A stretch of 64,000 nucleotides of DNA from Actinoallomurus iriomotensis (GTDB lineage: Bacteria > Actinomycetota > Actinomycetes > Streptosporangiales > Streptosporangiaceae): positions 132,649 through 196,648 of the forward strand of contig NZ_BSTJ01000015.1 in NCBI RefSeq assembly GCF_030269445.1, given 5' to 3'. This document shows, in pieces, positions 9,768 to 60,784 of this stretch. The notes below the pieces were generated by a model. That model was not told the DNA's origin. It was given only the letters and a program-made list of their open reading frames with translations, and ran no database searches. The translations under genes were made by a program, and so were the position numbers. Each line of letters opens with the position of its first letter. Positions within the stretch are counted from its first letter, which is position 1.

Positions 9768-9934
9768 CCCGCTCGCCGCAGCTCAGCGCCGCATTCGCCA
9801 TATTCGCCGCACCGTCCGACCACCACGATGACGCGGCGCAGGCGACGCCGCACAGGTGGGGCCGATACATCTGACTGAAGGACGAGGACATCGACCGCGC
9901 GCTCCGGGTCGAAGCCCCCGGACGGATCACGGCA

Positions 9935-44214: not shown

Positions 44215-46464
44215 GTGATGAATGCCCCTAATGCGCGCCAAGAACAGCTAATTGACGACAATCCCTTCCCTCGACCCTCAGCCGATCCCTGGGCGCTCGG
44301 CGTCGACGTGGTCAGCGTGCCGACGCCGGCGATCGACGAGGCGATGCGGCTGCTCGACGCCCACCTCGCCGAAGACGGCACCGAGGGTGTCGTGCTGGCG
44401 GTCTCCGGCGACTACGGCACCGGAAAGACCCACCTGGCGACCCAGTTACTCCGCAAGGTGCGCTCATCGCACGGCGACGACGCACGCTACGCCTATGTGG
44501 GCGCGCAGGAGGGCGGGTTTCACACTCTTTATCGCGGCAACTATCTTGCAACTTTCAATCGCGACGACGTGATCCGCCATATCCGCGAATATTACGCCCA
44601 CATCGTGGCCGACTCGCTGGAGAATACCGGATTCCCTCCTGAGGTCACTCGTCGCCTGCGCGAGCTGGAGATCGATCCACAGCATTTCGTCACGCAGTTC
44701 AATCTGGCCGAGAGCACCTTCCTGCAACGACTCAACGCGGATCTGGCGAAGGTCACCCGGAATGAGGAGTACGGCACCGCCCTCATGCTCCTGCTCCGCA
44801 ACGACCTGGCCGATCAGGTCTGGGAGTGGCTGCGAGGAGAGGAGCCCGATCCCCTGCTCCGCGAGCGGGGCATCACCAGCCGGATCGACGACGAGCCACG
44901 TGCGCTCGAGGCGATGGGCGTGCTGGCGCTCCTCTACCGCGGCCGCTCGCGCCACTTCGTCCTCGTCTTCGACGAACTGGAGAAGGTGCTTCCGAGTTCG
45001 AGCCGTCCCCCCGCGGAGACCATCGCGGCGTTCCGCGCGCTGACCGACCTCGCGACGCGCCAGGGGATCTTCCTCGTGCTCTGCGGCCTGCCGGAGTTCC
45101 TGGAGGCGATCGGCCAGAACAACGCCGAACACGCCATCACGGCGACGATCTCCACCGACGACGGCCTGTCGGCGGAACAGGTGCTCGACTACATCGACAA
45201 GAGCATGGCCGCCACGCGCTACGGGCCGGGGCTGGGTCCCTTCAGCGCGGAGATCATCCAGTTCATCTACCTGCTCACCGGGGGCAACGCTCGCCGGATC
45301 ATCCAGATCTGCCAGTCGTGCTACCGCATGTCGCTCGACACCGGCCGGGTCGACCGATTGATGGTCCGCCGGGCGGCGAAAGGCAAGTCCGAGGTCGTCG
45401 ACGAACGTACGGTCCGCAAGCAGATCGCCACCGAGCTGCAGAAACAGGCTCGCGAGTACCACACCGACCACCCGGTCGGCGGCGAGGACGGCCCCCGCGC
45501 CCCCTACTGGGTCCCCGTCTACGACACGGGGTGCGCGATCTTCCTCACCGACTCGGTCCTGGACGAGGCCGACGCCCAGCGGTTGATCGCCAACGCCAGG
45601 GCGGTCCGTACGACGGCTCCCCGCAGCAGGACCGCGCTCATCGTCAACGGCTTCCTGGCCGACCCGGTGCGCCGGGACCTGGAGGAGAGTTTCTCCGAGC
45701 CGCCTCTCATCTTCGCCAGGGAGCGGTTCTCCGAAGACTTCGAGTCGCTCCTGCGCCGGTTGACCGGGCCGCTGGAGGCCGCCGAGGGCGAGACGGCCGT
45801 GATCCGGGCCAACATCAGCCGGCTCGCGGCGGCGCAGACCAACGCGCAGCGCTATCTGGAGGAGCTCGCGCTCCAGGTCGAGTCGATGCGCGACACCACC
45901 GAACGCCAGTACGCCGCCCTGGCCCGCGATCTGCAGGACCTCGATCCGCGCCGCCGCCACCGGCCGCTGCCCGAGCACGTTGAAGTGATCTTCACGGAGG
46001 TGGTCACCGAACTGAAGGCGCTGACCGGCCTGGACGCCGCCCTCGGCGAGCTGTTCGGCGCCGAGTCGCCGGGGAGCGTGAGCGGCGTCCTGCTGCGGCT
46101 GCACAGCAGCGAGGCCGTGCGCACGGTCGGCGTCGCGAAGCTCACCGAGGCGTTGATCGCGGCCTTCCGTACCGCGGTCGAGGACTGGTACGGGCAGCTG
46201 GACGGTGCGACGCCCAGCGCGCGGCAGCTCGAACGGCTGGCCGTCTTCTGCCGCGCCTTCGACACGGTGCTGGAGGAGCTGCCGGTCTACCAGCTGAACA
46301 CGCTCAACGACCTGCTCGCGCGACCCTCATCGCGGACCGCGGTCATCGAGCAACGCACCCGGTCTCGTCGGCAGGCCGACATGTACGTGCTGCTCAGCGA
46401 GCTCGGGCACCGCGTCCGGCAGGCCTTCTCGGCCACCGGCCCCGGCGGGCTCCACGGCCGCTGA
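44215..46464 (+). CDS. AAA+ / Orc1-Cdc6-like P-loop ATPase, 749 aa, C-terminal 400 aa without recognisable domain
   Basis: Walker A AVSGDYGTGKTHLATQL. Walker B HFVLVFDELEK. Sensor-2-like TGGNARRIIQICQ. The start follows the previous stop by 2 nt. The 5' region is AT-rich (aat/caa/att codons). Confidence 0.7.
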   Translation: MMNAPNARQEQLIDDNPFPRPSADPWALGVDVVSVPTPAIDEAMRLLDAHLAEDGTEGVVLAVSGDYGTGKTHLATQLLRKVRSSHGDDARYAYVGAQEGGFHTLYRGNYLATFNRDDVIRHIREYYAHIVADSLENTGFPPEVTRRLRELEIDPQHFVTQFNLAESTFLQRLNADLAKVTRNEEYGTALMLLLRNDLADQVWEWLRGEEPDPLLRERGITSRIDDEPRALEAMGVLALLYRGRSRHFVLVFDELEKVLPSSSRPPAETIAAFRALTDLATRQGIFLVLCGLPEFLEAIGQNNAEHAITATISTDDGLSAEQVLDYIDKSMAATRYGPGLGPFSAEIIQFIYLLTGGNARRIIQICQSCYRMSLDTGRVDRLMVRRAAKGKSEVVDERTVRKQIATELQKQAREYHTDHPVGGEDGPRAPYWVPVYDTGCAIFLTDSVLDEADAQRLIANARAVRTTAPRSRTALIVNGFLADPVRRDLEESFSEPPLIFARERFSEDFESLLRRLTGPLEAAEGETAVIRANISRLAAAQTNAQRYLEELALQVESMRDTTERQYAALARDLQDLDPRRRHRPLPEHVEVIFTEVVTELKALTGLDAALGELFGAESPGSVSGVLLRLHSSEAVRTVGVAKLTEALIAAFRTAVEDWYGQLDGATPSARQLERLAVFCRAFDTVLEELPVYQLNTLNDLLARPSSRTAVIEQRTRSRRQADMYVLLSELGHRVRQAFSATGPGGLHGR

Positions 46465-47517
46465 GGGGACGAGCCGGGCGTACGCCGTGTTGCTCACGAG
46501 ATAGAGCAGGTTGATGACCAGGATGGCGGGGGCGACCACGGCCACCGTCCCGGCGAACGCGGGTTCGAGGAGCAACGCCAGCACGATCGCCGTGATGCCG
46601 TTCTGCTGCGCCAGTGCCAGGTACACCATGTCGCCGCTGCTCTGCGAACGTGTCAGCGGAAGGCTGACGACCGCCTGGGCGCCGAACGCCGCGAGCCCCA
46701 GGACGAGCCCGGCTCCGGGCGAGATCCCGAGCGAGAGGATCAGGCCGAGCAGACCCGTGGCCAGGACGAAGGCGAGATCGACGGCCCGGTCCAGCAGCCG
46801 GCCGACGGCGCGCGGCCGGCCGGGGATGACCGGCCGCACCGCCAGGCCGACGAGGGCCACGGCCAGCACCCACACCTGCCAGATCGCGACGGCGACCGTG
46901 CCGGCGAGCAGGAGACAGGTGACCGCCAGCCGGGGCCACGGACGGAACCGCCGGACCCACCGGTAGGCCAGGAACACCGCGCCGGCCAGCAGCACGTTGC
47001 CCAGAAGGTCGAGGGCGAAGGACCCGGGTCCGCCGAGGTTCAGCGCGGCGGCCGACCCGCCGTGCCGCGCCGACAGCGCCAGCGCCCCGACATAGATCGT
47101 GAGGAGCGTCGTGACGGGGTCGTCGAAGGACGCCCACGCGAGGAGCAGGCCACGTCCGCGCGCGGAGAGCCGGGAGGAGCCGCCGAGGGCCACCACCGAC
47201 AGCGGGTCGATCTGCGCCACGGCGATGCCGAGCACCAGCGAGCCGGGCCTGGGGAAGAACGCGAGCATGACGGCGCTGATCAACGCGGCTTTCAACAGGA
47301 CGCCCACCGTGACGGCGAGCACGACCGTACGCAGGTCGCCGCGCAGGTGCTCGAGGTCGATGGCGTGCGTGCTGCCGTAGAGGCCCAGCGCGAGAAGCCC
47401 CGTCACCACCGCCGGGTAGTAACCGCTGTTGAGCAGCGCCCCGACATGTCCGAAGTATCCGCCTGCGAGAGCGCCTAATCCGACTATTACGAGCATTAAC
47501 GCAAATCGCTTCGCCAT
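46327..47517 (-). CDS. Cation:proton antiporter (CPA/Na+-H+ exchanger family)
   Basis: 11-12 TM, Gly/Ala-rich helices. The start was moved to ATG MAKRFALMLVIV. Its 3' end overlaps the convergent ATPase gene by about 138 bp. Confidence 0.7.
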   Translation of the reverse strand: MAKRFALMLVIVGLGALAGGYFGHVGALLNSGYYPAVVTGLLALGLYGSTHAIDLEHLRGDLRTVVLAVTVGVLLKAALISAVMLAFFPRPGSLVLGIAVAQIDPLSVVALGGSSRLSARGRGLLLAWASFDDPVTTLLTIYVGALALSARHGGSAAALNLGGPGSFALDLLGNVLLAGAVFLAYRWVRRFRPWPRLAVTCLLLAGTVAVAIWQVWVLAVALVGLAVRPVIPGRPRAVGRLLDRAVDLAFVLATGLLGLILSLGISPGAGLVLGLAAFGAQAVVSLPLTRSQSSGDMVYLALAQQNGITAIVLALLLEPAFAGTVAVVAPAILVINLLYLVSNTAYARLVPSAAVEPAGAGGREGLPDAVPELAEQHVHVGLPTRPGALLDDRGPR

Positions 47518-47606: not shown

Positions 47607-48686
47607 TTACTGTCCGAAACTCGCCCCGGCGCCGACAAGGCCGGCCACGAGTTCGCCCATTCTCCGGTCGGCCTGACTCACGCGCTTCTGGTTGACGGTC
47701 ACCCCGACGAGGTAGTCGCGGGGGCCGAGGCGGTAGTAGTAGACGGCGCCCTGTTCGACGTCCAGCACGATGCGCAGCATCCGGCCGCGAACCGCCTGCC
47801 GGGCGAGTTGGCTCAGCTGCCGGGTGAACGTGACGAACCCCTCGGCCGTGCGCCGGTAGAGCGTCCGCATCGCCGGAGGCGGCAGATGCGCCGGCCGCAG
47901 CGCGACGACCTGCTCGTGGTCGAGGAGGTCCGCCTCCGCGACGATGTCTCCCGACCGGCAGTGCGCGAGGTAGACGAGTTCGTCCGGTCTGAGCAGGTCG
48001 GGCAGCCGGCCACCCAGCGTGGACAGCGGCGAGCTCCGTCGCTGGACCGCGGATCGGAAGGTCTCGTCGTTCGCCGGTTCGTCCGCCGACGGCGCGTTCG
48101 CCGCCGGCATGGTGCTCTTCCAGCCGCCGGGGTTCTGGGACGGGATCCCGAGCCGGTCGCGGAGCCCGTCGACGATGCCGCTGACGAACACATCGGCGTC
48201 GCGGACGAGACCGACCTGCGGCAACACCCGGGCCGTCCGGCCCTTCACGGCGGCGGCGGCTCCGAAGACGATCGCCAGGACGTAGTTCTTCGGCGTGACC
48301 GACATGCAGAACATGGCCCCGCGCTCCGCGTGCAGCACCATGCGGATCAGCCGGCCCGTCTCGAGGTCGTTCAGCTGCTGGTCCAGGGCGGTCATCATGA
48401 AGGCGAGCTGCTGCCCGGCCGCCTGGTAGAAGTGGCGCCGGTCCGGCGACGCGTCGGAGCCGGCCGAGAAGAGCTCCCCGTCGTCGAGCACGTCCACGGC
48501 GAACTCATAGACGCCGTGGTCGTACTTGGCCAGGTAGTGCGGACCTCCCTGCCGGCATACGTAGTCGTGAAAAGTGCTGACCGTAACCTGCTCGATGCTG
48601 CGGCTGCCCGTCCATTCATGGACACTCGCACGAGTTGTGCGAAGCTCCCCCATTGCCGCCTCCTTCGAAAACCCGCTTTTCCCCAT
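47607..48686 (-). CDS. Tandem roadblock/LC7 (MglB-like) domain protein
   Basis: Two repeats of the roadblock pattern (RLIRMVLHAERGAMFCMSV..NYVLAIVF and RMLRIVLDVEQGAVYYYRL..DYLVGVTV) with a Pro/Ala linker. Its ATG shares one nucleotide with the STAND gene stop (TGATG). Confidence 0.5.
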   Translation of the reverse strand: MGKSGFSKEAAMGELRTTRASVHEWTGSRSIEQVTVSTFHDYVCRQGGPHYLAKYDHGVYEFAVDVLDDGELFSAGSDASPDRRHFYQAAGQQLAFMMTALDQQLNDLETGRLIRMVLHAERGAMFCMSVTPKNYVLAIVFGAAAAVKGRTARVLPQVGLVRDADVFVSGIVDGLRDRLGIPSQNPGGWKSTMPAANAPSADEPANDETFRSAVQRRSSPLSTLGGRLPDLLRPDELVYLAHCRSGDIVAEADLLDHEQVVALRPAHLPPPAMRTLYRRTAEGFVTFTRQLSQLARQAVRGRMLRIVLDVEQGAVYYYRLGPRDYLVGVTVNQKRVSQADRRMGELVAGLVGAGASFGQ

Positions 48687-51600
48687 CAGATGATTGGAAT
48701 GTCCACATAAATGGCGGAAGTAATGCTCGCTTCGGTCAGGCCCTCAGCCGTCTCGAGCGCCGCGGCGGCGACCTCGGTATAGGGGTGTTCGTCCCCCAGA
48801 TAGTCGAGCAGGTCCGCGGCGGTCGCCTCGTGCAGTCGCAGCGCCTCGTCGGCCCGGCCGAGACCCGTCAGCGCCCGTGCCTCGTGCAGCGCGGCCACCA
48901 TCGCCCACGGATGCTGCTCGCCGAGCGCGGCGACGAGCCGCTGTCTCGCCTCCCGCACCGTCGCGAGGGTGTTCTCGGGCGCCTCCATCGTGCCCTCGAA
49001 CAGGCCGAGGTCGAGCCGGCACAGCTGGACGAAGGGATGGCCGGGGCCGTACACGCCGACGAGGTCGTCGAGGAGCCGCCGGCCCAGCCGCGAGGCCCCC
49101 AGGTGATCGCCGGCCTCGTCGAGCTCGATCGCCAGGCTCAGCTCGGCGGCCAGGGTGCTGGGATGGCCGGCGCCCAGGACCGCGCGGAACCCGCGCACGG
49201 CCCTCCGGATCTTCTCGTCCGCGGCGTCCACCCCCCGCTGCCGGTCGACGATCGCGAGGCTCCTCAGCAGGTCCATCTCGCTGAGCCGGTCGGGCGTCTT
49301 CTGGTCACGCGCCTGGCCGAGGCTCATGACGAGCAGGCGCCGCGCCTCGTCCTTGCGCCCGTTCGCGAACTTGTAATCGCCGACCCGGCGGGCGATGCGC
49401 AACGCGATCGGGTCGGTCTCCCCGAACTCGGCCACCTGCTGCCGCCACGCGCGTACGGCCGTGTCCTCGGCGAGCTGGTGCTGTCCGGTGAGGAAGGCGG
49501 CCTCGGCGAGGTTGTTACGGGCGATGGTCGTGTCGCGGTGGCCGTCGCCGAGGAGCAGGCGGGTCTCCTCGTACACGCCCTCGATCTCGCCCAGCGCCTG
49601 GCCGAACTGTCCCAGGCCGCGCCGGTCTCCGGTGCGGCCGCGGCCCGCGGTCAGTGCCCAGTAGCGGCCCGCCGCGTCCGCTCCGCGCAGGATCGTCAGC
49701 GCCTGCTCGCTCGCCCGCAGGGCGTCGTCGAACCGGCCGAGGTCACGGCGGAGGTTGGCGACCTGGACGAGCAGGCGCCCCTTGAGCAGGTCGTCCGGCC
49801 AGGCCGGCAGCAGCTCCTCGACCATCGGGAGCATGAGGCTCCAGCTCCCCCGGTCGCCGGTGACGTACTGGAATCGCACCTGCTCGACGAGCCAGCGGCG
49901 AGCGTGGGCGTCGAGGCTCTCGGCGGCCCCGGACGGGCCCAGATGCCGGTGGAGCTCGGAGAACACCTCCCCGTGGAGGCTCACCGGGCCGTCGGCCTCG
50001 ACGGGCACGATGTCCGCGAGGGCGCCGATCGTCTGCCCCTGCCGCTCGGCCGCCTGCTCCGGGGAGAGGCGGTCCCGGATGAGCTCCTGCACCCTCCGGT
50101 GCAGCAGGATCCGCGGGTCGCGGCTCCACTGGACGTCGGCCAGGCCGAAGCGCACGCAGAGCCGCAGCAGCTGGTCCAGCACCATGCTGTCGGCGGCGAC
50201 GAGCTCGCCGGCCTCCGGACCGGCCGCGACGGCGAGCCGGTCGAGGAACGGCGCCGACGCCAAGAGCCGGTGGCTCGCGCCCTCGGGCGCGAGCCAGGCG
50301 CAGAGTTCGAGCAGCCGGGCCGCGAGGCACCCGAGCGGGCCGTCCTCCATCGACTCGAACGTCACGTCCAGGCAGGCCGCGGTCGGCTCCGTCCCGGGCG
50401 TCCTCATCCGCTGGGCGACGCGTGCCTTGAACTCCGCCACCGCCCACGCCGTCGCGCCGTCGGTGTCGAGCGCCCTGATGGCCAGCAGGTAGTCGACCGC
50501 CTCGCGGATCCACGCCGCCGCCAGCCTCAGCGCGAGCGGCAGGCCCTCGACGATGCCGACGACGGTCTCGGCGTGCTCGTCCGACAGCCCGTCGATCCGC
50601 TCGCGCAGGAAACGCCGTCCCGGGCCGGTGTCGACCGGCCCGAGGCGGTCGGCGGCGTCCCCGGCCGTACGGCTGGTGATGAGCACGTGGCCGGGACCGC
50701 CGGACGGGATGAGGTCCTCCAGCGCGGCCAGGTCGTCGGCGTCGTCGTAGACGAGCAGCCAGTTGTCCTGCCCGGAGGAGCGCAGCGCGGTGACGACGGC
50801 CGCCGCGGGGTCGCCCTCCGGGGCCACCCGCAGCCGCGCGGCCAGGGCGTTCAGGTCGAGCCGTGCGAGCTCCGGCGTGCGCGCCGAGACCCACCAGATG
50901 ATCCCGTAGTCCTCGCCGAAGGCCCGGATGTAGTGCTCGACCATGGCGGTCTTGCCGATGCCCGGCGGGCCGCCGAGGACGTGCGGCTCGCAGCCGTCGA
51001 CGTCGCGCATCAGCCGGTCGCGCAGCGCGGCCAGGTCTCCGTCGCGCCCGACGAACGGGCCGTCGTCGGGCAGGACGTGGTTGGCGACCGCGCCGTCCGG
51101 GGGCGGGTCGAGCGGATACGCGGGGACGAAGCCGACGGGCGGCGAGGGCAGGCCGCCGGCGACGAGGCCGAGCCGGCCTTGTAAGAGCCGGATCGCCTCG
51201 CGTTGCTCCCGGCCGGCGAGGTTCAGCGTGAGCGGCGTGTCCGGGAGCCGCTCGGCGACGTCGTCGGACACGCAGAGCACGAGGGCGGGGTCCGTGCCGT
51301 GCCGCGCGTCGGCGAGCGCCGGCAGCAGGTGGGCCGAGGCGATCACGACGACCCGGCCCGTGACCGGCTCGCCCTCCGCGGCCAGCGTGACGTCGGCGCC
51401 GAGGCCGCGCAGCTGCGCCTGGACCCAGTCGGCCCAGCGGCGGTCGGCCCGGTCGTGGACGACCGTGAACCGCTCGGTCTCGCGGGCTTCGTCCAGGCCG
51501 ACGGCGATGCGGTAGTTCGCCCGCAGCGCGGCCGGCAGCTCGGCGTGACCGGTGACGACGCCGCCGGAGAGCCGCTCGGTCAGCCGGCCGTACGCCCGCA

Positions 51601-52369
51601 CCACCTCGCTGTCCGGCTCCTCCGCCAGGGTCGCGAGGATGGAGCGGCCGGCCTGCCGGGACAGGAACGGGACGGTGAGGACCTCTTTGCCGGTGCCGGG
51701 CGGTGCCTCGAACAGCTGGGTGAGGAGGTCCGCGTCGACCTGGGCGATCTCCGGCCCGGTGGTGCGGGGACCGGCCCGCAGTGGCAGCAGGTCGATCCCG
51801 GCCGCGGCCTGCGCCTGGATCGCCTCGGCGAGGTTCGCCGCCTGAAGGGCGGCCAGGCGGCCCGGCCCGAAGGCCACGACGGCGACGTCGCTGCCCCGGG
51901 CGATGACGTCGATGATGTCGGCGTTCGGCTCGGTGGGCGCGTCGACGAGGATGTAGCCGTAGGGCAGGTCCTCCATCGCGTCGCGCAGCCGCTGGACGAT
52001 GACGTCGATCGGTTCCGCCCAGGGCAGCCCCGGCAGCGACTCACCTCGCCCGGGGCCGAGGGGCGTGACCAGGTCGACCGGGCCGGCGTCTCCGGGAGGC
52101 TGGAACCGTTCGGGCCGCCACGTGCCGGGGTCCTGTCCGGTCAGCCGGTCGAGGAGCGCGCCGAGCGCGGCGACCTCGGGCGGCTCACCGACGCTGAAGG
52201 GCTTGAAGTAGCCGCGATCGGTGGGGCGCTCGCCGCTCCAGTCGACGACGAGGACGCGCTCACGCGCTCCGGCCAGGATCATGGCGGTGTTCGCGACGGC
52301 CGCGGTGCGGCCGAGCCCCCGCGCCGCCGAGGTGAACGTCACGCACCGGGTCGAGCGACGGCCGGTCAC
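48686..52369 (-). CDS. STAND NTPase: degenerate ParA/MinD-like N-domain, TIR-like domain, NB-ARC, C-terminal TPR array (1227 aa)
   Basis: Deviant P-loop FTSAARGLGRT. TIR-like ERFTVVHDRADRRWADWVQAQLRGLGADVTLAAEG...VVVIASAHLL. NB-ARC: GGPPGIGKT, LLVYDDADD, HVLITSR, GLPLAL. More than 10 TPR-like repeats. GTG start overlapping the upstream small ORF (GTGA). Confidence 0.85.
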   Translation of the reverse strand: MTGRRSTRCVTFTSAARGLGRTAAVANTAMILAGARERVLVVDWSGERPTDRGYFKPFSVGEPPEVAALGALLDRLTGQDPGTWRPERFQPPGDAGPVDLVTPLGPGRGESLPGLPWAEPIDVIVQRLRDAMEDLPYGYILVDAPTEPNADIIDVIARGSDVAVVAFGPGRLAALQAANLAEAIQAQAAAGIDLLPLRAGPRTTGPEIAQVDADLLTQLFEAPPGTGKEVLTVPFLSRQAGRSILATLAEEPDSEVVRAYGRLTERLSGGVVTGHAELPAALRANYRIAVGLDEARETERFTVVHDRADRRWADWVQAQLRGLGADVTLAAEGEPVTGRVVVIASAHLLPALADARHGTDPALVLCVSDDVAERLPDTPLTLNLAGREQREAIRLLQGRLGLVAGGLPSPPVGFVPAYPLDPPPDGAVANHVLPDDGPFVGRDGDLAALRDRLMRDVDGCEPHVLGGPPGIGKTAMVEHYIRAFGEDYGIIWWVSARTPELARLDLNALAARLRVAPEGDPAAAVVTALRSSGQDNWLLVYDDADDLAALEDLIPSGGPGHVLITSRTAGDAADRLGPVDTGPGRRFLRERIDGLSDEHAETVVGIVEGLPLALRLAAAWIREAVDYLLAIRALDTDGATAWAVAEFKARVAQRMRTPGTEPTAACLDVTFESMEDGPLGCLAARLLELCAWLAPEGASHRLLASAPFLDRLAVAAGPEAGELVAADSMVLDQLLRLCVRFGLADVQWSRDPRILLHRRVQELIRDRLSPEQAAERQGQTIGALADIVPVEADGPVSLHGEVFSELHRHLGPSGAAESLDAHARRWLVEQVRFQYVTGDRGSWSLMLPMVEELLPAWPDDLLKGRLLVQVANLRRDLGRFDDALRASEQALTILRGADAAGRYWALTAGRGRTGDRRGLGQFGQALGEIEGVYEETRLLLGDGHRDTTIARNNLAEAAFLTGQHQLAEDTAVRAWRQQVAEFGETDPIALRIARRVGDYKFANGRKDEARRLLVMSLGQARDQKTPDRLSEMDLLRSLAIVDRQRGVDAADEKIRRAVRGFRAVLGAGHPSTLAAELSLAIELDEAGDHLGASRLGRRLLDDLVGVYGPGHPFVQLCRLDLGLFEGTMEAPENTLATVREARQRLVAALGEQHPWAMVAALHEARALTGLGRADEALRLHEATAADLLDYLGDEHPYTEVAAAALETAEGLTEASITSAIYVDIPII

Positions 52370-52584
52370 GCCGTGCCGCCTGCCCTCGTGCCGCGCTCCG
52401 TCCGGCGCGAGCCTTCGAGGACCGTGTCATTGATGAAACTGGCGTATCCCGGCGTGCCCTCGTCGCCCTCGCGGCGTCTCCGGGTCAGCGCCCAGCCCAT
52501 GACCGACTCGTCCTGTTGTAGGTCCGGAGCCTCCAGATCGACCCCCGAGAGGTCCACCAGAGCCGGCTGCCCGTTTCCCCGCAT
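52366..52584 (-). CDS. Candidate small peptide (72 aa); possible RiPP precursor of the adjacent rSAM/SPASM enzyme
   Basis: GGTGGAGG RBS. Acidic, Leu-rich leader-like N-terminus ALVDLSGVDLEAPDLQQDESV. GYASFINDT aromatic-x-Asn motif. In-frame TAG 10 codons upstream of the ATG. Sits between the STAND gene and the divergent rSAM gene. Confidence 0.35.
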   Translation of the reverse strand: MRGNGQPALVDLSGVDLEAPDLQQDESVMGWALTRRRREGDEGTPGYASFINDTVLEGSRRTERGTRAGGTA

Positions 52585-52615
52585 GCCTCCACCGCCCGCG
52601 CCCAGAACCGACTTC

Positions 52616-52666
52616 TATAATAGACACCGCTTTTTACATGGTCCCCCACTAAAGTGGTTTGTAAAG
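52616..52666. promoter_or_regulatory. Divergent promoter with consensus -10 TATAAT and nested inverted repeats TTTACA..CCACT-aa-AGTGG..TGTAAA
   Basis: acttcTATAATagacaccgcttTTTACAtggtcccCCACTaaAGTGGttTGTAAAg. This AT-rich island lies between the peptide/STAND operon and the rSAM gene. Confidence 0.4.
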
Positions 52667-52714
52667 CGTCACTCGACACTATCGACCCCCTAGACCCGGC
52701 GTAGGCTCCGGTTC

Positions 52715-53905
52715 ATGATCAACGGACTTATTGGCCGCAATCGGCCGATCAAGAAGCCGACCCCCTTCCGTCAGTTCATTCTCAAGGTGCACAGTCGGTG
52801 CAATCTCGCCTGCACCTACTGCTATCTGTACACGATGGCCGATCAGCGCTGGCGGCATCGGCCACCCGTCATGTCCGCCCGAATCGCGGACTTAGCCGCG
52901 GCCCGGATCGCCGAGCACGTGCGGTCGCACGACCTGACCGACATCGCGGTCGTCCTGCACGGCGGAGAACCGCTCCTGGCCGGCCCCGATCGGCTTCGCC
53001 ACGTCGTGACGGCCGTGCGCGGCGCGGTGGGCGACGCCGCGACGGTCGACTTCTCCCTCCAGAGCAACGGGACCCTGCTCGACCGCCGCTTCCTGACCCT
53101 GTTCGACGAGCTGGGGATCCGCGTCGGAGTCAGCCTGGACGGCGACGCGGCCGCCCACGACCGCGCCCGGCGCAGGCCGCGAGGCGGCAGTCACGCCCAG
53201 GTCACGCGAGGGCTGGACGCGCTGACGGGCCCGGAGTTCGGTCACCTGTTCTCCGGGCTGCTGTGCGTCATCGACCTGGCCAACGACCCGATCGCGACCT
53301 ACGAGGCGCTGCTGGCCTTCTCGCCGCCCGCGATCGACCTGCTGCTGCCGCACGCCAACTGGAGCAACCCGCCGGCCGGACCGGCGGGCGCGTACGCGGC
53401 CTGGCTGATCCCCATCTTCGACCGCTGGTTCCACGCACCGGTGCGCGAGACGCGGATCCGGCTGTTCGAGGAGATCATCAATGTGCTTCTCGGCGGCGCG
53501 TCGGCCGTCGAGGGGATCGGGACGAGCCCCGCCGCGATGATCGTCGTGGAGACCGACGGGCAGATCGAGCAGTCGGATATCCTCGCCGCGGCTTTCGACG
53601 GCGCCGCGTACCTCGGCCTGGACGTCGGCGATGACGATTTCGATGCCGCGCTCCGACATCCTGCCACCATCGCCCGCCAATTAGGCATGACCGGAATACC
53701 CGGGGAGTGCCGCGAGTGCCGCTGGGCGGCCGTATGCGCGGGCGGACATTATTCCCATCGTTATCAGGACCAAAAAGGGTTCGACCATCGTTCGGTTTAC
53801 TGTGCCGACCTTTTCGCGTTGTTCGACCACATCCGTACGGCACTGGTCGCCGCACTCGCGGCGCGCGCCGCCGCCTCCCCTCCGGCGCTGACCGTCATCC
53901 CGTAG
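52715..53905 (+). CDS. Radical SAM / SPASM-domain enzyme (FxsB-like peptide maturase)
   Basis: CNLACTYCY (CxxxCxxC) and a C-terminal SPASM Cys cluster (GECRECRWAAVCAGGHY...VYCAD). 396 aa. Confidence 0.85.
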   Translation: MINGLIGRNRPIKKPTPFRQFILKVHSRCNLACTYCYLYTMADQRWRHRPPVMSARIADLAAARIAEHVRSHDLTDIAVVLHGGEPLLAGPDRLRHVVTAVRGAVGDAATVDFSLQSNGTLLDRRFLTLFDELGIRVGVSLDGDAAAHDRARRRPRGGSHAQVTRGLDALTGPEFGHLFSGLLCVIDLANDPIATYEALLAFSPPAIDLLLPHANWSNPPAGPAGAYAAWLIPIFDRWFHAPVRETRIRLFEEIINVLLGGASAVEGIGTSPAAMIVVETDGQIEQSDILAAAFDGAAYLGLDVGDDDFDAALRHPATIARQLGMTGIPGECRECRWAAVCAGGHYSHRYQDQKGFDHRSVYCADLFALFDHIRTALVAALAARAAASPPALTVIP

Positions 53906-56900
53906 GCGGACGGTCGGACCGGCCGGTGCGGGCGATGGCGGTCTCCACTCCGGCGATCCGGTCGGCGAGCAGGCCGAGGGCGCCGACCGCCCGGCTCATC
54001 GGGTCGTCCTCCTCGCCGCCCAGCGCCCGGGCCCGTACGAACGCCGCCTTCACCTCCGCCCAGCGCTCGCTCTGCTCGGCGGTCAGCGTGCCGCGCAGCT
54101 CGCCGAGTTTCAGCAGGTTCGCCTCGGCTCCGGAGGCCAGCGTCTGCGCCTCGCCGAGGTAGTGGTCGTCGACGACCGCCTCCAGCTCCGCGTCGTTCAT
54201 CGCCGGCACGATGCGTTCGGCCAGCTTGTTCATGTTCCGGTAGGAGCCCTGCAGCTGGAACGGCGGCTCGGTCCGCGACGCGTCGTTCTGCGCCGCCGAG
54301 GCGATGTAGGCCCGGTTGCACGCGAGCACCACCCGCTGCACCCTCAGCAGCTTGCGCAGCACGGCGGTGATCTGCTCGACCTCGGTCGCGGAGTACGGGT
54401 GGACGAGCCGGTCGGGCATCGCCGTGGAGTCGCCGCGCGCGAGGCGTACGAACAGCTCGACGTCGGCGCGGTCGCGGGTGGACAGCGGGGCGAGCACGGG
54501 GTTGGAGGTCAGGGCGTTCTCCACGTAGCTGAGCGCGAACAGCTCCTCGCGCCCGGACAGCACGTCGCCGAGGTTCCACACGTCGGCGCGGTTGGCCAGC
54601 ATGTCCGGGACGCGGAACCGCCGGCCCGACTCGGTGAACGGGTTGCCCGCCATGCACACCGCGAACCGCTTGCCGCGCAGGTCGTACGTGCGGGTGCGGC
54701 CCTCCCAGACGCCCTCGATGCGGCGCTGGGCGTCGCACAGCGAGATGAACCGCTGCAGCAGCTCCGGCGACGTGTGCTGGATGTCGTCGAGGTAGAGCAG
54801 CACGTTGTTGCCCATCTCCAGCGCGAAGGAGATCTTCTCGACCTCCTGGCGCGCGGTGGCGTTCGGCGCCTCGGCCGGGTCCAGCGAGGTGACCGACTGG
54901 CCGAGCGCCGGCCCGTTGATCTTGACGAACATCAGGCCGAGCCGCCCCGCGACGTACTCCATCAGCGTCGTCTTGCCGTACCCGGGCGGTGAGATGAGCA
55001 TCAGCAGGCCCATCTGGTCGGTGCGCTTGGCGTCGCCCGCCGCGCCGAGCTGCTTGGCCAGGTTGTCGCCGATCAGCGGCAGGTAGACCTCGTCCAGCAG
55101 GGCGTTGCGCACGAACCCGCTCATCACCTTCGGCCGGTACTCCTCCAACCGCAGCCGCGACCGCTCGGCCGCGACCAGCTCCCCGCGTCGCTTCTGGTAC
55201 GCCCGGTAGGCGGGCACGCGTTCGGCGCGGAACCGGCGGGTACGGGTCAGCACCTCATCGAGGCGGAGTTCCAGCCGCCGGCCGGTGACGCGCGGGTGCG
55301 TGCCGAGCAGGCCCTCGACGGTCGCGGTCAGCGGCGCGGAGGACTCATAGCGCGGCAGCGGCCCGCACAGCTCGATCGCCACCGCCTCGGCCAGATCGCC
55401 GGCGGGCGAGGCGTCCGACGCCACGTACGCGCTCAGCCAGGCCTCGACGAGCTGCCGCCGTGCCGCCAGGTCGTCGCCCAGATCGCGCAGGTCGGCCTCG
55501 AACCCCGGATCGCCGCCGAGCGCCCGCCGGAACCCGTCCAGGAGGGCGCGGGCGCCCGCGCCGGTGACGAAGCCCTCCGGCGCGGCGGCCAGCTCCTCGA
55601 ACAGGTACTCCCCCGCGAGGTCGTGCGGCCCGGCGTCGAGGGCGGAGGCCGCGATGGCCGCGGTCAGTTCGGCGCGCAGCCCCGCGACCGCCGCCGCGTC
55701 GCCGAACGCGGCACGCGCGCGGGCGAGGGACCGGGCCCGCGCGGCCCAGGACGTACGGTCCTCCTTCGCGGCGCCGTGCGCCCAGAACAGCTGGGCGGCC
55801 GCACGCGCGGCCGGTGGGTAGCGCAGCAGCCCGGCGTCGTCGTGCAGCCGCAGCAGCGCCGCCACGATCAGAGCGGCGTCGCGGTCGTGGACGCCGCGTT
55901 CGTAGCCCTCGTCGTACCGGGTCTCGGCGGCGCGCCGCACCTCGGCGAACAGGCCGTCGGCGGACTCGGCCGCGCGCCGCAGCGCGCCGAGCGAGGGGCC
56001 GGTGAGCAGGTCCGCGGCGAGGTACTCGGCGCGGTAGACCTCAGGCGTCTCGGAGACCAGCGACTGGTCCCAGTACGGCCGGGTCGCCGCGAAGTCCGGG
56101 TCGCGCACCGGCTGCCGGTAGTCGGTCGCGGTCACCGCGTACGCCAGGCCGCCCTCGTACGGCACGAGGGTCAGGTCGAGGGGCTGGGTGTTGACCGCGA
56201 ACCGGTGCCGGCCGAGGCGGATCGCCTGCCCGCCGCCCTCGTACAGGTCGACGCGGTCGCGCAGGACCCGGCCGGCGTCCTGCCGGGCGGCCTTGAGCCG
56301 TCCGGCGAGTTCCTCCGCGCGCACCGCGTCGCCGAGGTCCCGCAGTTGATCGGCGACGCCGCGGACCTTGGCCACCATCGGGTCGGCGGCGAAGTAGGTG
56401 TTGATCTCGTCGAGGGAGTCCAGTTCGGCGACGCGCCGCTGGATCCCGGTCAGGACGCGTTCGGCCGACTCGGCGAGCCGGTCCGCCCGCCGTACCTGCT
56501 CGTCGACGAGTGCCTGCTTGCGCGTGGAGAACGCCTCGTAGACCTCCTCGCGCCGGGCGGACAGCCGCGCGACGAAGTCGTCGAACTCGGCGAACCGCGA
56601 CTCCAGGTTCTCCAGCTGGAGCATCATGCGGCCGAGCTGGTCGTCGCAGTGCGCGGGAGAGTCGGCCATCGCCAGGGCCGCGGTCACGGCCTGGCCGAGC
56701 AGCGCGAACTCCGCCGCGAACGCGGCCCGGCCCTCAGCGTCGAGCAGTTCGCGGCGGCGGGCGGTCAGGCTCGCCTGAGCCTGGTTGATCTCGGCGAGCG
56801 CCTCGCCGATCCGCTCCAGGATGGAGGTGCGGACGCGGGCGTCGGCGACGTCGAGCGATCCGACGACCTCGGTGAGCGTCTCCAGGCCGTGGGTCTGCTC

Positions 56901-58781: not shown

Positions 58782-60784
58782 TGGTCGATGACGGCGACGG
58801 AGGAGACGGCGGCGTCGGCGACACCGAGGCGTTCGGCGTGGTCGAGCAGTTCCTGCGCCTTGGCGCCGTCCGACCCGCCGCCCCGGATCCGCTGCATGAG
58901 CAGGGCGGACAGGGTGAGGTTCTTCACGTCGTCCGTGCTGACCGAGCCGAGCAGCCGGGTGAGGTCCTCGGGGAAGCTGCGGTCGCCGTTCAGCCACGGC
59001 CCGGCGAGGCCGCGCGCCACGCCGGAGTGCTCGACGAACCCGTCCATGCTCTTGCCGACGCCGATCGCGCCGACGACCTTGTCGAAGAACGTGCTCTCGC
59101 CGCCGACGATGTCGATGTCGGCCTTCTCCAACGCGGACGCCAGTACCGTCGCCTGCTCGCCGGCGACCTCCCGCTGGACGTCCAGGCCGGCCAGGCGGAT
59201 CTCCTTCTCCGCCTCCAGCCGCAGGCGGTACTCCTCGTGCCCCCGCGTCGCGTCGTCCATCGCGGCCATGCCGGCGGCCTTGTCGGTGAGGCCCTCCGCC
59301 TCGGCCTTGAGCTTCTCGCGGATGCCGTCGGCGGCGGCGAGGGCCTTCTGCCGGTCGACGGCGGCCTCGGCGTTGCCGACCTTCTCGATGGCCTCGGCGT
59401 CCCGCTCGCGCACCTGCACCTCGGCCAGGCCCTCCGCCGCGGCCTCGGCCTGGACGCCCTCGGCCAGCCGGATCTTGGCCTGCGCGTCGAGCTCGGCGGT
59501 CTTCTGCCGCGCCTCGGCGAGCAGCAGCTCCTGGCGGGCCTGGAACTTGGCCGCCTCCTCGGCGGCCTCGGCCGCCTTGATGCCCTTGACGAGGTTCTCC
59601 TGCGCCTCCGCCTCGGCCTGGATGACCAGGGCCTGGCGCGTGCGCTCGGCCTCCTCGACGACGCGGAGCTTCTTGATGTTCTCCTCCTGCTCGGCGACCG
59701 TCTTCTCCACCGCGATGCGCTCGCGGATGACGTCGGCGATCTCCCGCTTCTCCGCCTCGACCTCCTTGTCCTTGGCGATCCGGGACAGCTCGGTCTCGCG
59801 CTCGCGGGCGATCACCTCGAGCAGGCGGTCCTTCTCGATGCGCTCGCTCTCCACCGCGATGACGCGTTCGCGGTTCTTCTCCGCGACGGCGATCTCCCGG
59901 TTGCGGTTCTCCTGCTGGATGCCGAGCTGCTCGTCGGTACGGATGTGCGCGCTCTGGGAGGTCAGCCGCTCCTCGGCCTGCACCTTGGCGATCTCGGCCT
60001 CCTCGCGGGCCCGGACCGTCTCGATCTCGCGCTTCTTCTTGACCTCGGCCTCGGCCTGCCGGCGTTCGAGCTCGAGGATCGCCTCACGCGCGTCGACGTT
60101 CTGCCGCGTGATCTCCTTCTGCTCGTTGCGCTGGTACTCGTTGGTGCGCACGTGCTCGATCGCGGTCAGCTCGGTGATCTTGCGGATGCCCTGCGCGTCG
60201 AGGATGTTCGTCGGGTTGAGGCTGTCCAGCGGCGTCTGCTCGAGGTGGTCGATGGCCGCGTCCTCGAGGTGGTAGCCGTTCAGGTCGGTGCCGATGATCT
60301 GCACGATCTGGTCGCGGAACTCGTGCCGGTGGGTGTACAGGTCGACGAAGTCCATCTGCTTGCCGACGGTCTTCAGCGCCTCGGAGAACTTGGCGTTGAA
60401 CAGCGTCTGGAGCGTCTCCTCGTGGCTGGCGCGCGCCGTGCCGATGGCCTGGGCGACCTGGATGACGTCCTCGACGGTCTTGTTGACCCGGACGAAGAAC
60501 GTGATGCGGATGTCGGCGCGGATGTTGTCCCGGCAGATCAGGCCCTCGGCGCCCGAACGCTCGATCTCGATGGTCTTCACCGAGATGTCCATCACCTCGG
60601 CCTTGTGCAGGATCGGCAGCACGATCGCGCCGGTGAACGTGACGTGCACCTTCTTGATCTTCGAAACGATCAGCACGCGCCCCTGCTCCACCTTGCGGAA
60701 CAGCCGGAGCATCACGATGACACCGGCGAGCACGAGCAGAATCGCGGCGACCAGCACGCCGAGCCCGACGAACAGCGAATCCAT
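58778..60784 (-). CDS. Flotillin (SPFH/band-7 domain + long Ala/Glu-rich coiled coil), YqiK/FloT-like
   Basis: N-terminal TM helix, SPFH domain (RVLIVSKIKKVHVTFTGAIVLPI...), approximately 300-aa EA-rich coiled coil, 668 aa. Confidence 0.9.
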   Translation of the reverse strand: MDSLFVGLGVLVAAILLVLAGVIVMLRLFRKVEQGRVLIVSKIKKVHVTFTGAIVLPILHKAEVMDISVKTIEIERSGAEGLICRDNIRADIRITFFVRVNKTVEDVIQVAQAIGTARASHEETLQTLFNAKFSEALKTVGKQMDFVDLYTHRHEFRDQIVQIIGTDLNGYHLEDAAIDHLEQTPLDSLNPTNILDAQGIRKITELTAIEHVRTNEYQRNEQKEITRQNVDAREAILELERRQAEAEVKKKREIETVRAREEAEIAKVQAEERLTSQSAHIRTDEQLGIQQENRNREIAVAEKNRERVIAVESERIEKDRLLEVIARERETELSRIAKDKEVEAEKREIADVIRERIAVEKTVAEQEENIKKLRVVEEAERTRQALVIQAEAEAQENLVKGIKAAEAAEEAAKFQARQELLLAEARQKTAELDAQAKIRLAEGVQAEAAAEGLAEVQVRERDAEAIEKVGNAEAAVDRQKALAAADGIREKLKAEAEGLTDKAAGMAAMDDATRGHEEYRLRLEAEKEIRLAGLDVQREVAGEQATVLASALEKADIDIVGGESTFFDKVVGAIGVGKSMDGFVEHSGVARGLAGPWLNGDRSFPEDLTRLLGSVSTDDVKNLTLSALLMQRIRGGGSDGAKAQELLDHAERLGVADAAVSSVAVIDQ

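What the first reader, a model, noticed from the sequence alone, without database searches (positions are those of the whole stretch)
52366..53905. FxsB-like radical-SAM/SPASM maturase divergent from a 72-aa leader-like peptide that sits directly in front of the NB-ARC/TPR protein - possible Fxs-type (cyclophane RiPP) locus with an atypical precursor
As I recall, actinomycete FxSxx-COOH systems combine a short precursor ending in F-x-S-x-x, an rSAM/SPASM enzyme (FxsB) and a large NB-ARC/TPR protein (FxsT). Here the rSAM/SPASM and the NB-ARC/TPR protein are both present. The small ORF between them has a plausible leader (VDLSGVDLEAPDL, acidic) and an aromatic-x-Asn/Ser-type site (GYASFINDT). 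It does not terminate there, however: it runs 19 residues further, to ...RTERGTRAGGTA. Its stop overlaps the GTG of the STAND gene. So it is either a divergent precursor class, a read-through variant, or not a precursor at all.
Basis: partly seen in the sequence, partly recalled or inferred. Interest (0 to 1): 0.75.

Follow-up and report, generated by a model that had tools for sequence, protein, structure and literature searches.

The report
Cyclophane peptide locus with tailed precursor
This is a genuine Fxs-type locus, in which a radical-SAM enzyme is predicted to cross-link a small peptide next to a large NLR-like ATPase, but here the peptide carries an extra, poorly conserved 18-residue tail that runs into the start codon of the ATPase gene.

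Summary
Gene 52715-53905(+) passes the curated FxsB model (433.6 bits, cutoff 370). The 1227-aa gene 48686-52369(-) passes the FxSxx-COOH-system TPR model (536 bits, cutoff 300). The 72-aa ORF 52366-52584(-) gets no hit from the curated FxsA model. A profile built only from bona fide FxsA peptides nevertheless picks it as the single significant hit in the window (E 5e-5). An ORF with the same leader and a GYASF-x-N core sits at the same position in 42 related loci.

The FxsA C-terminus falls into three classes that match FxsB clades. Pseudonocardiales peptides end at F-x-N/S-x-x. Micromonospora peptides carry four extra acidic residues. A single clade of eight loci, including this window, carries a variable tail of 11-21 residues. 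In all eight, the fxsA stop overlaps the fxsT start as RTGA. The tail evolves almost neutrally and its last codons spell the Shine-Dalgarno (SD) ribosome-binding site of fxsT.

So this is a read-through, translationally coupled variant of a known precursor, not a sequencing artefact. Database searches found about 40 further tailed FxsA-like peptides. The conserved cassette also includes a tandem-Roadblock protein and a membrane protein, and no peptidase. It is a new variant of a known kind, of moderate interest.

The parts
52715..53905 (+). fxsB: radical SAM/SPASM three-residue-cyclophane-forming maturase, 396 aa
   Evidence: TIGR04269 scores 433.6 bits (cutoff 370) over profile positions 1-362 of 363. 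Pfam Radical_SAM also hits. The CxxxCxxC motif (C29, C33, C36) and the five other family-conserved Cys (C184, C332, C335, C341, C363) are all present.
52585..52714 (.). Divergent intergenic region between fxsA and fxsB. It is AT-rich and nearly invariant among three Actinoallomurus species, and holds the palindrome GTGTC-N4-GACGC at 52666-52679.
   Evidence: Alignments. The palindrome lies at the same position in L001-L006. It is not significant on count alone in the window. The sigma-70 consensus scan found nothing.
52447..52584 (-). fxsA leader, residues 1-46 (ALVDLSGVDL...SVMGWALTRRRRE...)
   Evidence: Aligns to the leader of canonical FxsA peptides. Invariant columns are listed.
52423..52446 (-). 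fxsA core, Y47-A-S-F50-I-N52-D-T54. F50-I-N52 is the predicted cyclophane motif. Y47-A-S49 is a possible second motif.
   Evidence: GYASF[ILM]N is conserved across the tailed class. It aligns with the F-x-S/N of canonical FxsA. Cross-link chemistry is inferred from MscB, XncB and OscB (PMC11002830).
52369..52422 (-). fxsA C-terminal tail, residues 55-72 (VLEGSRRTERGTRAGGTA). It is poorly conserved and contains the SD-like purine run for fxsT.
   Evidence: dN is 0.20-0.29 in the tail against 0.04-0.08 in leader plus core. Length and sequence vary between genera. SD-like runs in the last codons are shown.
52366..52369 (-). GTGA overlap of the fxsT start codon (GTG) and the fxsA stop codon (TGA): a translational-coupling junction
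   Evidence: An RTGA overlap is present in 8 of 8 tailed loci and absent from the tail-0 and tail-4 loci.
48686..52369 (-). fxsT: STAND NTPase of 1227 aa. Domains: degenerate ParA/MinD-like (about residues 7-222), weak TIR-like (about 300-400), AAA_16/NB-ARC plus TPR (438-1209).
   Evidence: NF040586 scores 536.3 bits (cutoff 300). AAA_16 and TPR_12 hit in Pfam. The N-terminal profile hits Soj/ParA/MinD structures at E 1.7e-13, with Walker A reading SAARGLGRTA. TIR_2 is sub-threshold in 7 of 8 orthologues.
47607..48653 (-). Tandem Roadblock/LC7 (MglB-like) protein, 348 aa counted from the ATG preceded by AAGGAGG
   Evidence: Conserved directly downstream of fxsT in 38 loci. AF2 model has pLDDT 86 and pTM 0.88 with two repeated modules. 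Foldseek hits MglB and Roadblock structures at probability 1.0, E about 1e-3. No Pfam, NCBIfam or PDB sequence hit. The start codon was chosen.
46327..47517 (-). Polytopic membrane protein, about 396 aa with about 10 hydrophobic segments, of unknown family
   Evidence: Found on the same strand directly downstream of the Roadblock gene in 22 loci from 4 genera. No Pfam, NCBIfam or PDB hit. The single-sequence AF2 model is unusable at pLDDT 47.

Best explanation
**What it is.** This is an Fxs/Msc-type triceptide (three-residue cyclophane) locus from Actinoallomurus iriomotensis, of the 'standalone' cassette type. fxsB is transcribed divergently from an operon fxsA - fxsT - tandem-Roadblock gene, and a conserved membrane-protein gene follows. 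The 72-aa ORF is the FxsA precursor.

**Steps shown by the sequence.**
- Family membership of FxsB and FxsT.
- Homology and positional conservation of FxsA.
- A clade-specific loss of the stop codon after F-x-N-x-x, so that the ORF runs 18 more codons and ends in a GTGA overlap with the fxsT start.
- Near-neutral evolution of that tail, whose last codons carry the purine-rich ribosome-binding site of fxsT.

**Steps inferred.**
- FxsB binds the conserved leader (LVDLSxxDL...SVLxxALxRxRRE).
- By 5'-deoxyadenosyl-radical H-abstraction at Asn52 C-beta, it makes a C-C bond to the ring of Phe50, giving a para-cyclophane with a 2 Da mass loss. This follows what is reported for MscB (Phe-C4 to Ser-C-beta) and for XncB/OscB (Phe-C4 to Asn-C-beta).
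- The tail is mainly a by-product of translational coupling, which ties FxsT synthesis to FxsA synthesis. It is not a conserved functional peptide.
- The modified peptide then acts with, or on, the TPR sensor of the STAND ATPase FxsT.
- Any proteolytic trimming must use a protease encoded elsewhere.
For: - **Enzyme:** FxsB scores 433.6 bits (cutoff 370) and FxsT 536.3 bits (cutoff 300). All 8 family-conserved Cys are present in FxsB.
- **Homology of the small ORF:** a canonical-only FxsA profile hits it at E 5.2e-5, against 0.86 for the next segment. Canonical and +4 peptides from the same cassette type pass TIGR04268 at 33-49 bits. A tailed Actinomadura peptide reaches 25.8 bits against a cutoff of 28.
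- **Position:** the same ORF sits in the same place in 42 loci. The cassette fxsB | fxsA-fxsT-Roadblock is in 38 loci and the membrane gene in 22.
- **Coupling:** an RTGA overlap is found in 8 of 8 tailed loci. Tail-0 and tail-4 loci have no such overlap, with the fxsT start 64-110 nt downstream where it could be placed. SD-like runs such as GGAGGAGGAGGA encode the tail ends.
- **Single origin:** the tailed loci form one FxsB clade.
- **Tail evolution:** tail dN/dS is 0.57-1.6 against 0.38-0.40 for leader plus core, with no indels among three species.
- **Chemistry precedent:** PMC11002830 and PMC11499958.
- **System-level precedent:** PMC7159879, section 24, describes standalone actinobacterial peptide-processing systems coupled to an AP-ATPase with an inactive MinD/ParA-like domain.
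Against: - There is no biochemical evidence for this locus.
- The curated FxsA model gives no hit at all.
- The family's name-giving feature, the motif at the free C-terminus, is absent. If FxsB or FxsT needs a free x-[LIM]-COOH end, this peptide could be a poor substrate or would need unknown processing.
- No peptidase or recognisable exporter lies in the cassette.
- The dN/dS estimates rest on 18 codons and 3 species.
- An 18-codon open stretch is unremarkable by itself at 70% GC. My estimate from base composition, not a tool result, is about a 0.7 chance of no stop.
- The apparent SD of fxsA lies only 1-3 nt from its ATG.
- The role of FxsT as receptor is inference.
Confidence: 0.78

Rival explanations
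1. The tail is a selected, functional follower or extended core. It could be recognised by FxsB or FxsT, or carry extra cross-link sites. It would then not be a by-product of gene overlap.
For: - The tailed state has persisted across three genera and many database sequences.
- Tail length is exactly 18 residues in four Actinoallomurus sequences.
- In Actinomadura sp. OS1-43 (L003/P0076) the tail holds two extra F-T-[DE] motifs (GFTEEGAFTD), which are absent from its relative P0079.
- Followers exist in other triceptides, for example MicA (PMC12912966).
Against: - No residue after N52 is conserved between genera.
- Tail length varies from 10 to 30 residues.
- Tail dN/dS is near 1.
- The C-terminal residues track the SD sequence of fxsT.
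- The constant length within Actinoallomurus is also explained by the fixed position of the fxsT start.
Confidence: 0.15
2. The small ORF is only a regulatory upstream ORF that drives or tunes fxsT translation. It is no longer a substrate of FxsB, that is, a decayed precursor.
For: - RTGA coupling is present in all tailed loci.
- The curated FxsA model does not hit.
- The conserved x-[LIM]-COOH end is lost.
Against: - The leader and the GYASF-x-N core are under purifying selection and near-invariant in the class.
- FxsB is intact and co-diverges with the peptide class.
- No other FxsA-like ORF exists in the window.
Confidence: 0.07
3. The long C-terminus is a sequencing or assembly frameshift, or this copy is a pseudogene.
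For: None beyond the departure from the canonical FxSxx-COOH end.
Against: - An identical protein is present in an independent database record.
- The frame and length are the same in A. acaciae, A. oryzae and an unnamed Logan-assembly contig.
- The architecture is the same in Actinomadura and Acrocarpospora.
Confidence: 0.02
4. The rSAM enzyme is an anaerobic sulfatase-maturating enzyme or another non-Fxs SPASM enzyme, and lies next to the STAND gene by coincidence.
For: It shows sub-threshold similarity to TIGR03942, at 143.8 bits.
Against: - That score is far below the TIGR03942 cutoff of 349, while the enzyme is above the FxsB cutoff.
- Linkage with fxsA and fxsT is conserved in 38 loci.
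- No sulfatase gene was found among the neighbouring genes examined.
Confidence: 0.01

Closest known systems
MscA/MscB of Micromonospora: the characterised member of IPR026335/TIGR04269 (Nguyen et al. 2020, as summarised in PMC11002830)
   Same: - The rSAM/SPASM family is the same. The window FxsB is 51-55% identical to the Micromonospora FxsBs.
- The Micromonospora loci fetched here have the same cassette: a divergent fxsB, then fxsA-fxsT(ParA-like/NB-ARC/TPR)-Roadblock.
- The leader is homologous, and the core has the same YA-x-F-x-S/N form.
   Different: - The Micromonospora precursors read ...YAGF-E-S-AL-DGDD, with Ser at position 3 and a 4-residue acidic tail. A 40-110 nt gap precedes fxsT.
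- Here the motif is F-I-N, followed by an 18-residue non-acidic tail and a GTGA overlap with fxsT.
- I could not verify that the published MscB locus is one of the loci fetched.
FxSxx-COOH system as defined by NCBIfam/TIGRFAMs (TIGR04268 FxsA, TIGR04269 FxsB, NF040586 TPR protein)
   Same: FxsB and the TPR/STAND protein pass their curated cutoffs. The precursor is homologous and adjacent.
   Different: - The precursor fails TIGR04268.
- The motif is F-x-N rather than F-x-S, and it is internal rather than C-terminal.
- No HExxH-domain protein lies in the cassette.
Standalone actinobacterial peptide-processing systems coupled to an AP-ATPase with an inactive MinD/ParA-like domain (Kaur, Burroughs, Iyer and Aravind 2020, PMC7159879)
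   Same: - The STAND (AP-ATPase plus TPR) protein carries an N-terminal ParA/MinD-like domain with a degenerate Walker A.
- It has a weak TIR-like segment.
- An rSAM-SPASM gene and a small, rapidly diverging FxSxx-type peptide are present.
   Different: - That paper lists a zincin-like metallopeptidase as core to peptide-processing systems. None is present here.
- In the section I read, the paper does not mention C-terminal tails, fxsA-fxsT overlap, the tandem-Roadblock gene or the membrane-protein gene.
Other triceptides with followers, for example minviopeptin MicA/MicB (PMC12912966)
   Same: Both have an omega-X-X cyclophane motif followed by a C-terminal follower region that is not part of the final core.
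   Different: - The rSAM lineage is different (PasB-like).
- In MicA the follower is removed by a dedicated alpha-KG enzyme encoded in the cluster. No such enzyme is present here.

Membership tests
FxsB family cyclophane-forming rSAM/SPASM maturase (TIGR04269) | Score at or above the curated cutoff, over the full length of the model | tested here: met
   433.6 bits against a cutoff of 370, over profile positions 1-362 of 363
FxsB family cyclophane-forming rSAM/SPASM maturase (TIGR04269) | CxxxCxxC radical-SAM cluster motif, plus the auxiliary-cluster cysteines conserved in the family | tested here: met
   C29, C33, C36, C184, C332, C335, C341 and C363 are all present. The same eight columns are conserved in 12-15 of 15 aligned FxsBs.
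FxsB family cyclophane-forming rSAM/SPASM maturase (TIGR04269) | Forms an aromatic-to-C-beta cross-link on its precursor | not testable with these tools
   Needs co-expression with HR-MS/MS and NMR
FxSxx-COOH cyclophane-containing RiPP peptide (TIGR04268, FxsA) | Score at or above the curated cutoff of 28 bits | tested here: not met
   No hit even at E up to 10, for the full peptide or the peptide cut at T54. Controls from the same cassette type score 33-49 bits.
FxSxx-COOH cyclophane-containing RiPP peptide (TIGR04268, FxsA) | F-x-S-x-x motif at the extreme C-terminus | tested here: not met
   The motif is F50-I-N52-D-T54, followed by 18 more residues
FxSxx-COOH cyclophane-containing RiPP peptide (TIGR04268, FxsA) | Sequence homology to bona fide FxsA in leader and core | tested here: met
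   A profile of 14 canonical and +4 FxsA peptides scores it at 19.2 bits, E 5.2e-5 among 1106 window segments, aligned over residues 9-52
FxSxx-COOH cyclophane-containing RiPP peptide (TIGR04268, FxsA) | Encoded next to an FxsB gene | tested here: met
   Divergent from fxsB across a 130-bp gap. The position is the same in 40 of the 42 loci that carry the peptide; in L008 and L009 the ORF lies elsewhere on the other strand.
FxSxx-COOH system tetratricopeptide repeat protein (NF040586, FxsT) | Score at or above the curated cutoff | tested here: met
   536.3 bits against a cutoff of 300, over residues 438-1209
Triceptide (three-residue cyclophane RiPP) | Precursor with an aromatic-X-X motif whose third residue has a C-beta hydrogen, paired with a 3-CyFE rSAM enzyme | tested here: met
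   F50-I-N52 and Y47-A-S49 are present. The enzyme family is named cyclophane-forming. Phe-Asn and Phe-Ser precedents are in PMC11002830.
Standalone peptide-processing system with ParA-like AP-ATPase (PMC7159879) | AP-ATPase/TPR protein with an inactive MinD/ParA-like N-terminal domain | tested here: met
   The profile of residues 1-440 hits Soj/ParA/MinD structures at E 1.7e-13. Walker A reads SAARGLGRTA, lacking both lysines.
Standalone peptide-processing system with ParA-like AP-ATPase (PMC7159879) | TIR domain in the AP-ATPase | tested here: inconclusive
   TIR_2 hits are sub-threshold: E 0.0019 here, and 7 of 8 orthologues with a best E of 4.4e-5, over the first 30 model positions only. 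The profile found no TIR structure in the PDB.
Standalone peptide-processing system with ParA-like AP-ATPase (PMC7159879) | Zincin-like (HExxH) metallopeptidase gene | tested here: not met
   No HExxH or HxxEH motif in any cassette or neighbouring protein. No peptidase family hit.
Anaerobic sulfatase maturase (TIGR03942) | Score at or above the curated cutoff | tested here: not met
   143.8 bits against a cutoff of 349.45

The most novel reading that the evidence does not exclude
The cross-linked FxsA may not be an exported natural product. It could be an intracellular cognate ligand of the NLR-like STAND ATPase FxsT, acting as activator, inhibitor or guard. In this reading the RTGA overlap couples FxsT synthesis to precursor synthesis. 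The cyclophane, made or not made by the oxygen- and SAM-dependent FxsB, would be the signal read by the TPR sensor. The tandem-Roadblock and membrane proteins would act downstream. That would make it a RiPP-type modification used as the trigger of a bacterial STAND/TIR conflict system. The tailed clade would show that a free FxSxx carboxy-terminus is not needed for that recognition.
Probability: 0.25. Interest if true: 0.75.

Novelty: new variant of a known kind. Interest (0 to 1): 0.45.

Why it matters
The Fxs system is named and modelled on a motif at the free C-terminus. This locus and its relatives show that a whole FxsB clade, and many more peptides in the databases, carry internal F-x-N/S motifs followed by unconserved tails. 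The curated model misses them, and this one is annotated as a 'hypothetical protein'. Genome mining therefore under-counts these precursors.

The consistent 4-nt overlap with the STAND gene gives a concrete, testable link between precursor translation and production of an NLR-like ATPase. The biological role of these very common actinomycete loci is still unknown. The tailed and untailed classes form a natural experiment on two questions: whether the maturase and the TPR sensor need a free C-terminus, and whether an unlinked protease trims the product.

Tried and rejected
- **A canonical precursor elsewhere in the window.** I scanned all six frames for ORFs ending in [FWY]-x-[STN]-x-x. Only implausible hits inside other genes turned up.
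- **The two ORFs overlapping the small ORF** (52427-52627 and 52485-52679). They have no family hits and the wrong codon-position GC.
- **RNA and promoter scans.** Rfam found nothing on 52200-52900. The sigma-70 scan found no site and only one weak terminator-like hairpin.
- **PADLOC defence models.** Only generic rSAM (viperin) and trivial hits appeared.
- **PDB sequence searches.** The Roadblock-like and membrane proteins gave nothing.
- **Membrane protein structure.** The single-sequence AF2 model had pLDDT 47, so I did not use it for fold search.
- **TIR segment.** Its profile found nothing in the PDB.
- **DUF3686 ATPase and flotillin-like genes.** These lie next to fxsB only in Actinoallomurus, so I rejected them as parts of the system.
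- **Long repeat proteins in the representative search** (P0087, P0097 and similar). These are summed-repeat false positives.
- **Literature.** Phan and Morinaka 2022 (ACS Chem Biol 17:3284) and Nguyen et al. 2020 (Nat Chem 12:1042) are not held. I therefore cannot exclude that tailed precursors are already catalogued there. The searches on 'Fxs' and 'FxsA' returned only fragile-X and E. coli fxsA papers.
- **PF27839.** This accession is precomputed on several tailed peptides. It is not in the local Pfam copy and I could not identify it.

Full report
**Source and layout.** The 72-aa peptide is 100% identical to a 'hypothetical protein' of Actinoallomurus iriomotensis. The region holds five elements:
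- fxsB at 52715-53905(+).
- A 130-bp AT-rich gap.
- A 72-aa ORF at 52366-52584(-).
- A 1227-aa gene at 48686-52369(-), whose GTG start overlaps the small ORF's TGA stop (GTGA).
- A 348/359-aa gene at 47607-48653/48686(-) and a membrane-protein gene at 46327-47517(-).

**The two large proteins.**
- The rSAM enzyme passes the curated FxsB model (TIGR04269, 433.6 bits, cutoff 370). It is far below the sulfatase-maturase cutoff (143.8 against 349).
- It keeps the CxxxCxxC motif and the five other cysteines conserved across 15 FxsBs.
- The 1227-aa protein passes the 'FxSxx-COOH system tetratricopeptide repeat protein' model (NF040586, 536.3 bits, cutoff 300) over residues 438-1209, with AAA_16 and TPR Pfam hits.
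- A profile of its N-terminus hits Soj/ParA/MinD structures at E 1.7e-13. The Walker A reads SAARGLGRTA, with both lysines lost.
- A TIR-like segment is only weakly supported. TIR_2 is sub-threshold in 7 of 8 orthologues, and no TIR structure was found in the PDB.
- This architecture matches the 'standalone peptide-processing systems ... [quoted passage not shown] 2020 (PMC7159879).

**Is the small ORF a precursor?**
- The curated FxsA model (TIGR04268) gives no hit, even for the peptide cut at T54.
- I fetched 71 loci encoding FxsB relatives and searched their six-frame translations with a profile of the small ORFs found beside fxsB. Forty-two loci carry a homologous ORF. In 40 of them it is divergent from fxsB and directly upstream of fxsT; in L008 and L009 it lies elsewhere on the other strand.
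- The shared features are a leader, L-[IV]-D-L-[ST]-x-[IV]-D-L...[ST]-V-L-x-x-A-L-x-R-x-x-R-E, and a core, Y-A-x-F-x-[NS].
- Peptides from the same cassette type that end canonically, or have four extra residues, pass TIGR04268 at 33-49 bits. A tailed Actinomadura formosensis peptide reaches 25.8 bits, just under the cutoff of 28.
- A profile built only from 14 canonical and +4 peptides scores the window ORF at E 5.2e-5 among all 1106 six-frame segments. The next segment scores 0.86, and the alignment runs from L9 to N52.
- Codon-position GC (0.71/0.56/0.82) fits the frame.
- No other ORF in the window ends in an F-x-S-x-x-like motif in a plausible context.

The ORF is therefore an FxsA homologue that the curated model misses.

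**The C-terminal classes.** What follows F-x-[NS]-x-x falls into three classes.

| Class | Taxa | Example endings |
|---|---|---|
| No tail | Umezawaea, Saccharopolyspora, Actinokineospora, a Pseudonocardiaceae MAG; also Streptosporangium (L008/L009, outside this FxsB clade) | FQNRL, FQNTI, FQNAM, FTSSI |
| Four acidic residues | All Micromonospora loci | D-G-[DE]-D |
| 11-21 variable residues | Three Actinoallomurus (18 each), four Actinomadura, one Acrocarpospora | |

- On a neighbour-joining tree of FxsB, the three classes are three separate clades among the divergent-cassette loci. The tailed loci form one clade of eight.
- In all eight tailed loci the fxsA stop overlaps the fxsT start as GTGA (six loci) or ATGA (two loci). 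None of the tail-0 or tail-4 loci has such an overlap. Where the fxsT start could be placed (Umezawaea, Actinokineospora) it lies 64-110 nt downstream of the fxsA stop.
- The last codons of the tails are purine-rich SD-like runs. For example, GGAGGAGGAGGA encodes ...EEED, GGACGAGGA encodes ...RDED, and AAGGAG encodes ...KE. Part of the tail's composition is therefore dictated by the ribosome-binding site of fxsT.
- Among the three Actinoallomurus species there are no indels. Tail dN is 0.20-0.29 against 0.04-0.08 in leader plus core. Tail dN/dS is 0.57-1.6 against 0.38-0.40. The sample is small.
- Between genera, nothing after the Asn is conserved.

The best reading is that the stop codon was lost once in this clade. 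The ORF now reads through the former spacer to a coupling overlap with fxsT, and the tail sequence itself is largely unconstrained. A sequencing frameshift is excluded.

**How common are tails?**
- A word-indexed search with the eight tailed peptides found 13 more. All have G-Y-A-S-F-[ILM]-N or a close variant, followed by 10-22 variable residues. One is named 'FXSXX-COOH protein' by JGI. Several carry the Pfam accession PF27839, which I could not resolve.
- An exhaustive profile search of 1.84 billion representatives gave 48 hits at E up to 0.001, of which about 40 are small peptides.
- Of 50 small FxsA-like peptides pooled from both searches, 10 end at the motif, 4 have 1-4 extra residues, 8 have 5-10 and 28 have more than 10. 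The query was built from tailed peptides, so these proportions are biased.
- Tails also occur after otherwise canonical ends, such as FQNAI-TRTT... and FRSSI-AEED....

Tails are therefore recurrent. The variant is 'atypical' relative to the model, not rare.

**The rest of the cassette.**
- The gene after fxsT is conserved in 38 loci. It has no Pfam, NCBIfam or PDB sequence hit.
- Its AF2 model, built with 39 homologues, is confident (pLDDT 86, pTM 0.88) and shows two repeated modules. These match MglB and Roadblock/LC7 structures at Foldseek probability 1.0, though E is only about 1e-3.
- A polytopic membrane protein gene follows on the same strand in 22 loci from four genera. It has no family assignment.
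- No cassette or neighbouring protein contains HExxH or matches a peptidase family. The metallopeptidase that Kaur et al. list as core is absent.
- The DUF3686 ATPase and the flotillin-like gene are neighbours only in Actinoallomurus.

**Mechanism.**
- Shown: family membership, homology, gene order, the overlap and the tail's evolutionary pattern.
- Inferred from characterised relatives: MscB (IPR026335, the same family) links Phe-C4 to Ser-C-beta, and XncB/OscB link Phe-C4 to Asn-C-beta (PMC11002830). Phe motifs generally give para-cyclophanes (PMC11499958). I therefore predict a Phe50-Asn52 para-cyclophane with a 2 Da mass loss.
- Tyr47 is near-invariant. In Micromonospora it is followed by A-G, which cannot be cross-linked at C-beta, so it is more likely a recognition residue than a second cross-link site. 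In this class Y-A-S could in principle be cross-linked.
- The role of FxsT as sensor of the modified peptide, and the roles of the Roadblock and membrane proteins, are hypotheses in line with Kaur et al..

**Novelty and limits.**
- The locus type is known. The tailed, translationally coupled FxsA subclass is not covered by the curated model or by the accessible literature.
- I could not read Phan and Morinaka 2022 or Nguyen et al. 2020.
- I rate it a new variant of a known kind, of moderate interest.

Noticed in passing
window 52666-52679 (-); L001-L006 at about 5952-5967; L017, L021, L022, L024, L026, L036 and L046 at about 8287-9836: A palindrome GTGTC-N4-GAC(A/G)C, with a GTG-N8-CAC core like CRP/FNR-family sites, sits at the same place in the fxsA-fxsB intergenic region of the tailed clade. 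It lies about 35-40 nt upstream of a conserved TAnnnT -10-like element. It also appears roughly 150 nt upstream of fxsT in several Fxs loci of a different architecture. One match per 64 kb is expected by chance, so only the positional conservation is meaningful. Kaur et al. mention CRP-like regulators linked to such systems.
   Followed up: partly
window 43073-44212 (+) and 44215-46464 (+): A pair of P-loop proteins of 379 aa and 749 aa. The second has AAA_16/AAA_22 and weak BrxD similarity. The region has lower GC (0.656). Homologues of the C-terminal part of the 749-aa protein lie convergent to the cassette, next to the Roadblock gene, at the edge of 13 other loci. A full-length copy lies downstream of fxsB in Pilimelia (L062). 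It may be a further linked component.
   Followed up: partly
L003 5637-5861 (-) = P0076, compared with P0079: In Actinomadura sp. OS1-43 the FxsA tail reads VFPGFTEEGAFTDPPERDEDA. This gives three F-T-[DE] motifs in a row, whereas the close relative P0079 has only VFEPPERDEDA. The difference looks like an insertion or duplication of the putative cross-link motif inside the tail.
   Followed up: no
window 53895-58997 (-) and 58778-60784 (-): A 1700-aa DUF3686/DUF7902/AAA ATPase gene converges on fxsB, with the two ORFs overlapping by 11 nt (53895-53905). Upstream of it, on the same strand, is a 668-aa flotillin-like protein with a long Glu/Ala/Arg-rich coiled-coil region. The pair is conserved only in Actinoallomurus loci. 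The maximal ORF of the ATPase overlaps the 3' end of the flotillin-like gene by about 220 nt, so its true start is probably further downstream.
   Followed up: no
window 48653-48686 (-): The maximal ORF of the Roadblock-like gene starts at an ATG that overlaps the fxsT stop (TGATG). A second ATG 33 nt downstream is preceded by AAGGAGG, and it is the start implied by the 346-348-aa lengths of the closest database homologues. The coupling of this gene to fxsT is therefore uncertain.
   Followed up: partly
proteins P0002 and P0074-P0084 (database hits): Several tailed FxsA-like peptides carry a precomputed Pfam accession, PF27839.1. It is absent from the local Pfam copy, and the window peptide itself carries no such mark. 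Pfam may already hold a family covering part of this class.
   Followed up: no
proteins P0087, P0093, P0097, P0099, P0102 and P0106: Long repeat proteins score against the FxsA profile through many short matches to the leader-like D-L-x-x-x-D-L segment. On inspecting P0087 and P0097 these look like summed-repeat false positives, not relatives.
   Followed up: yes
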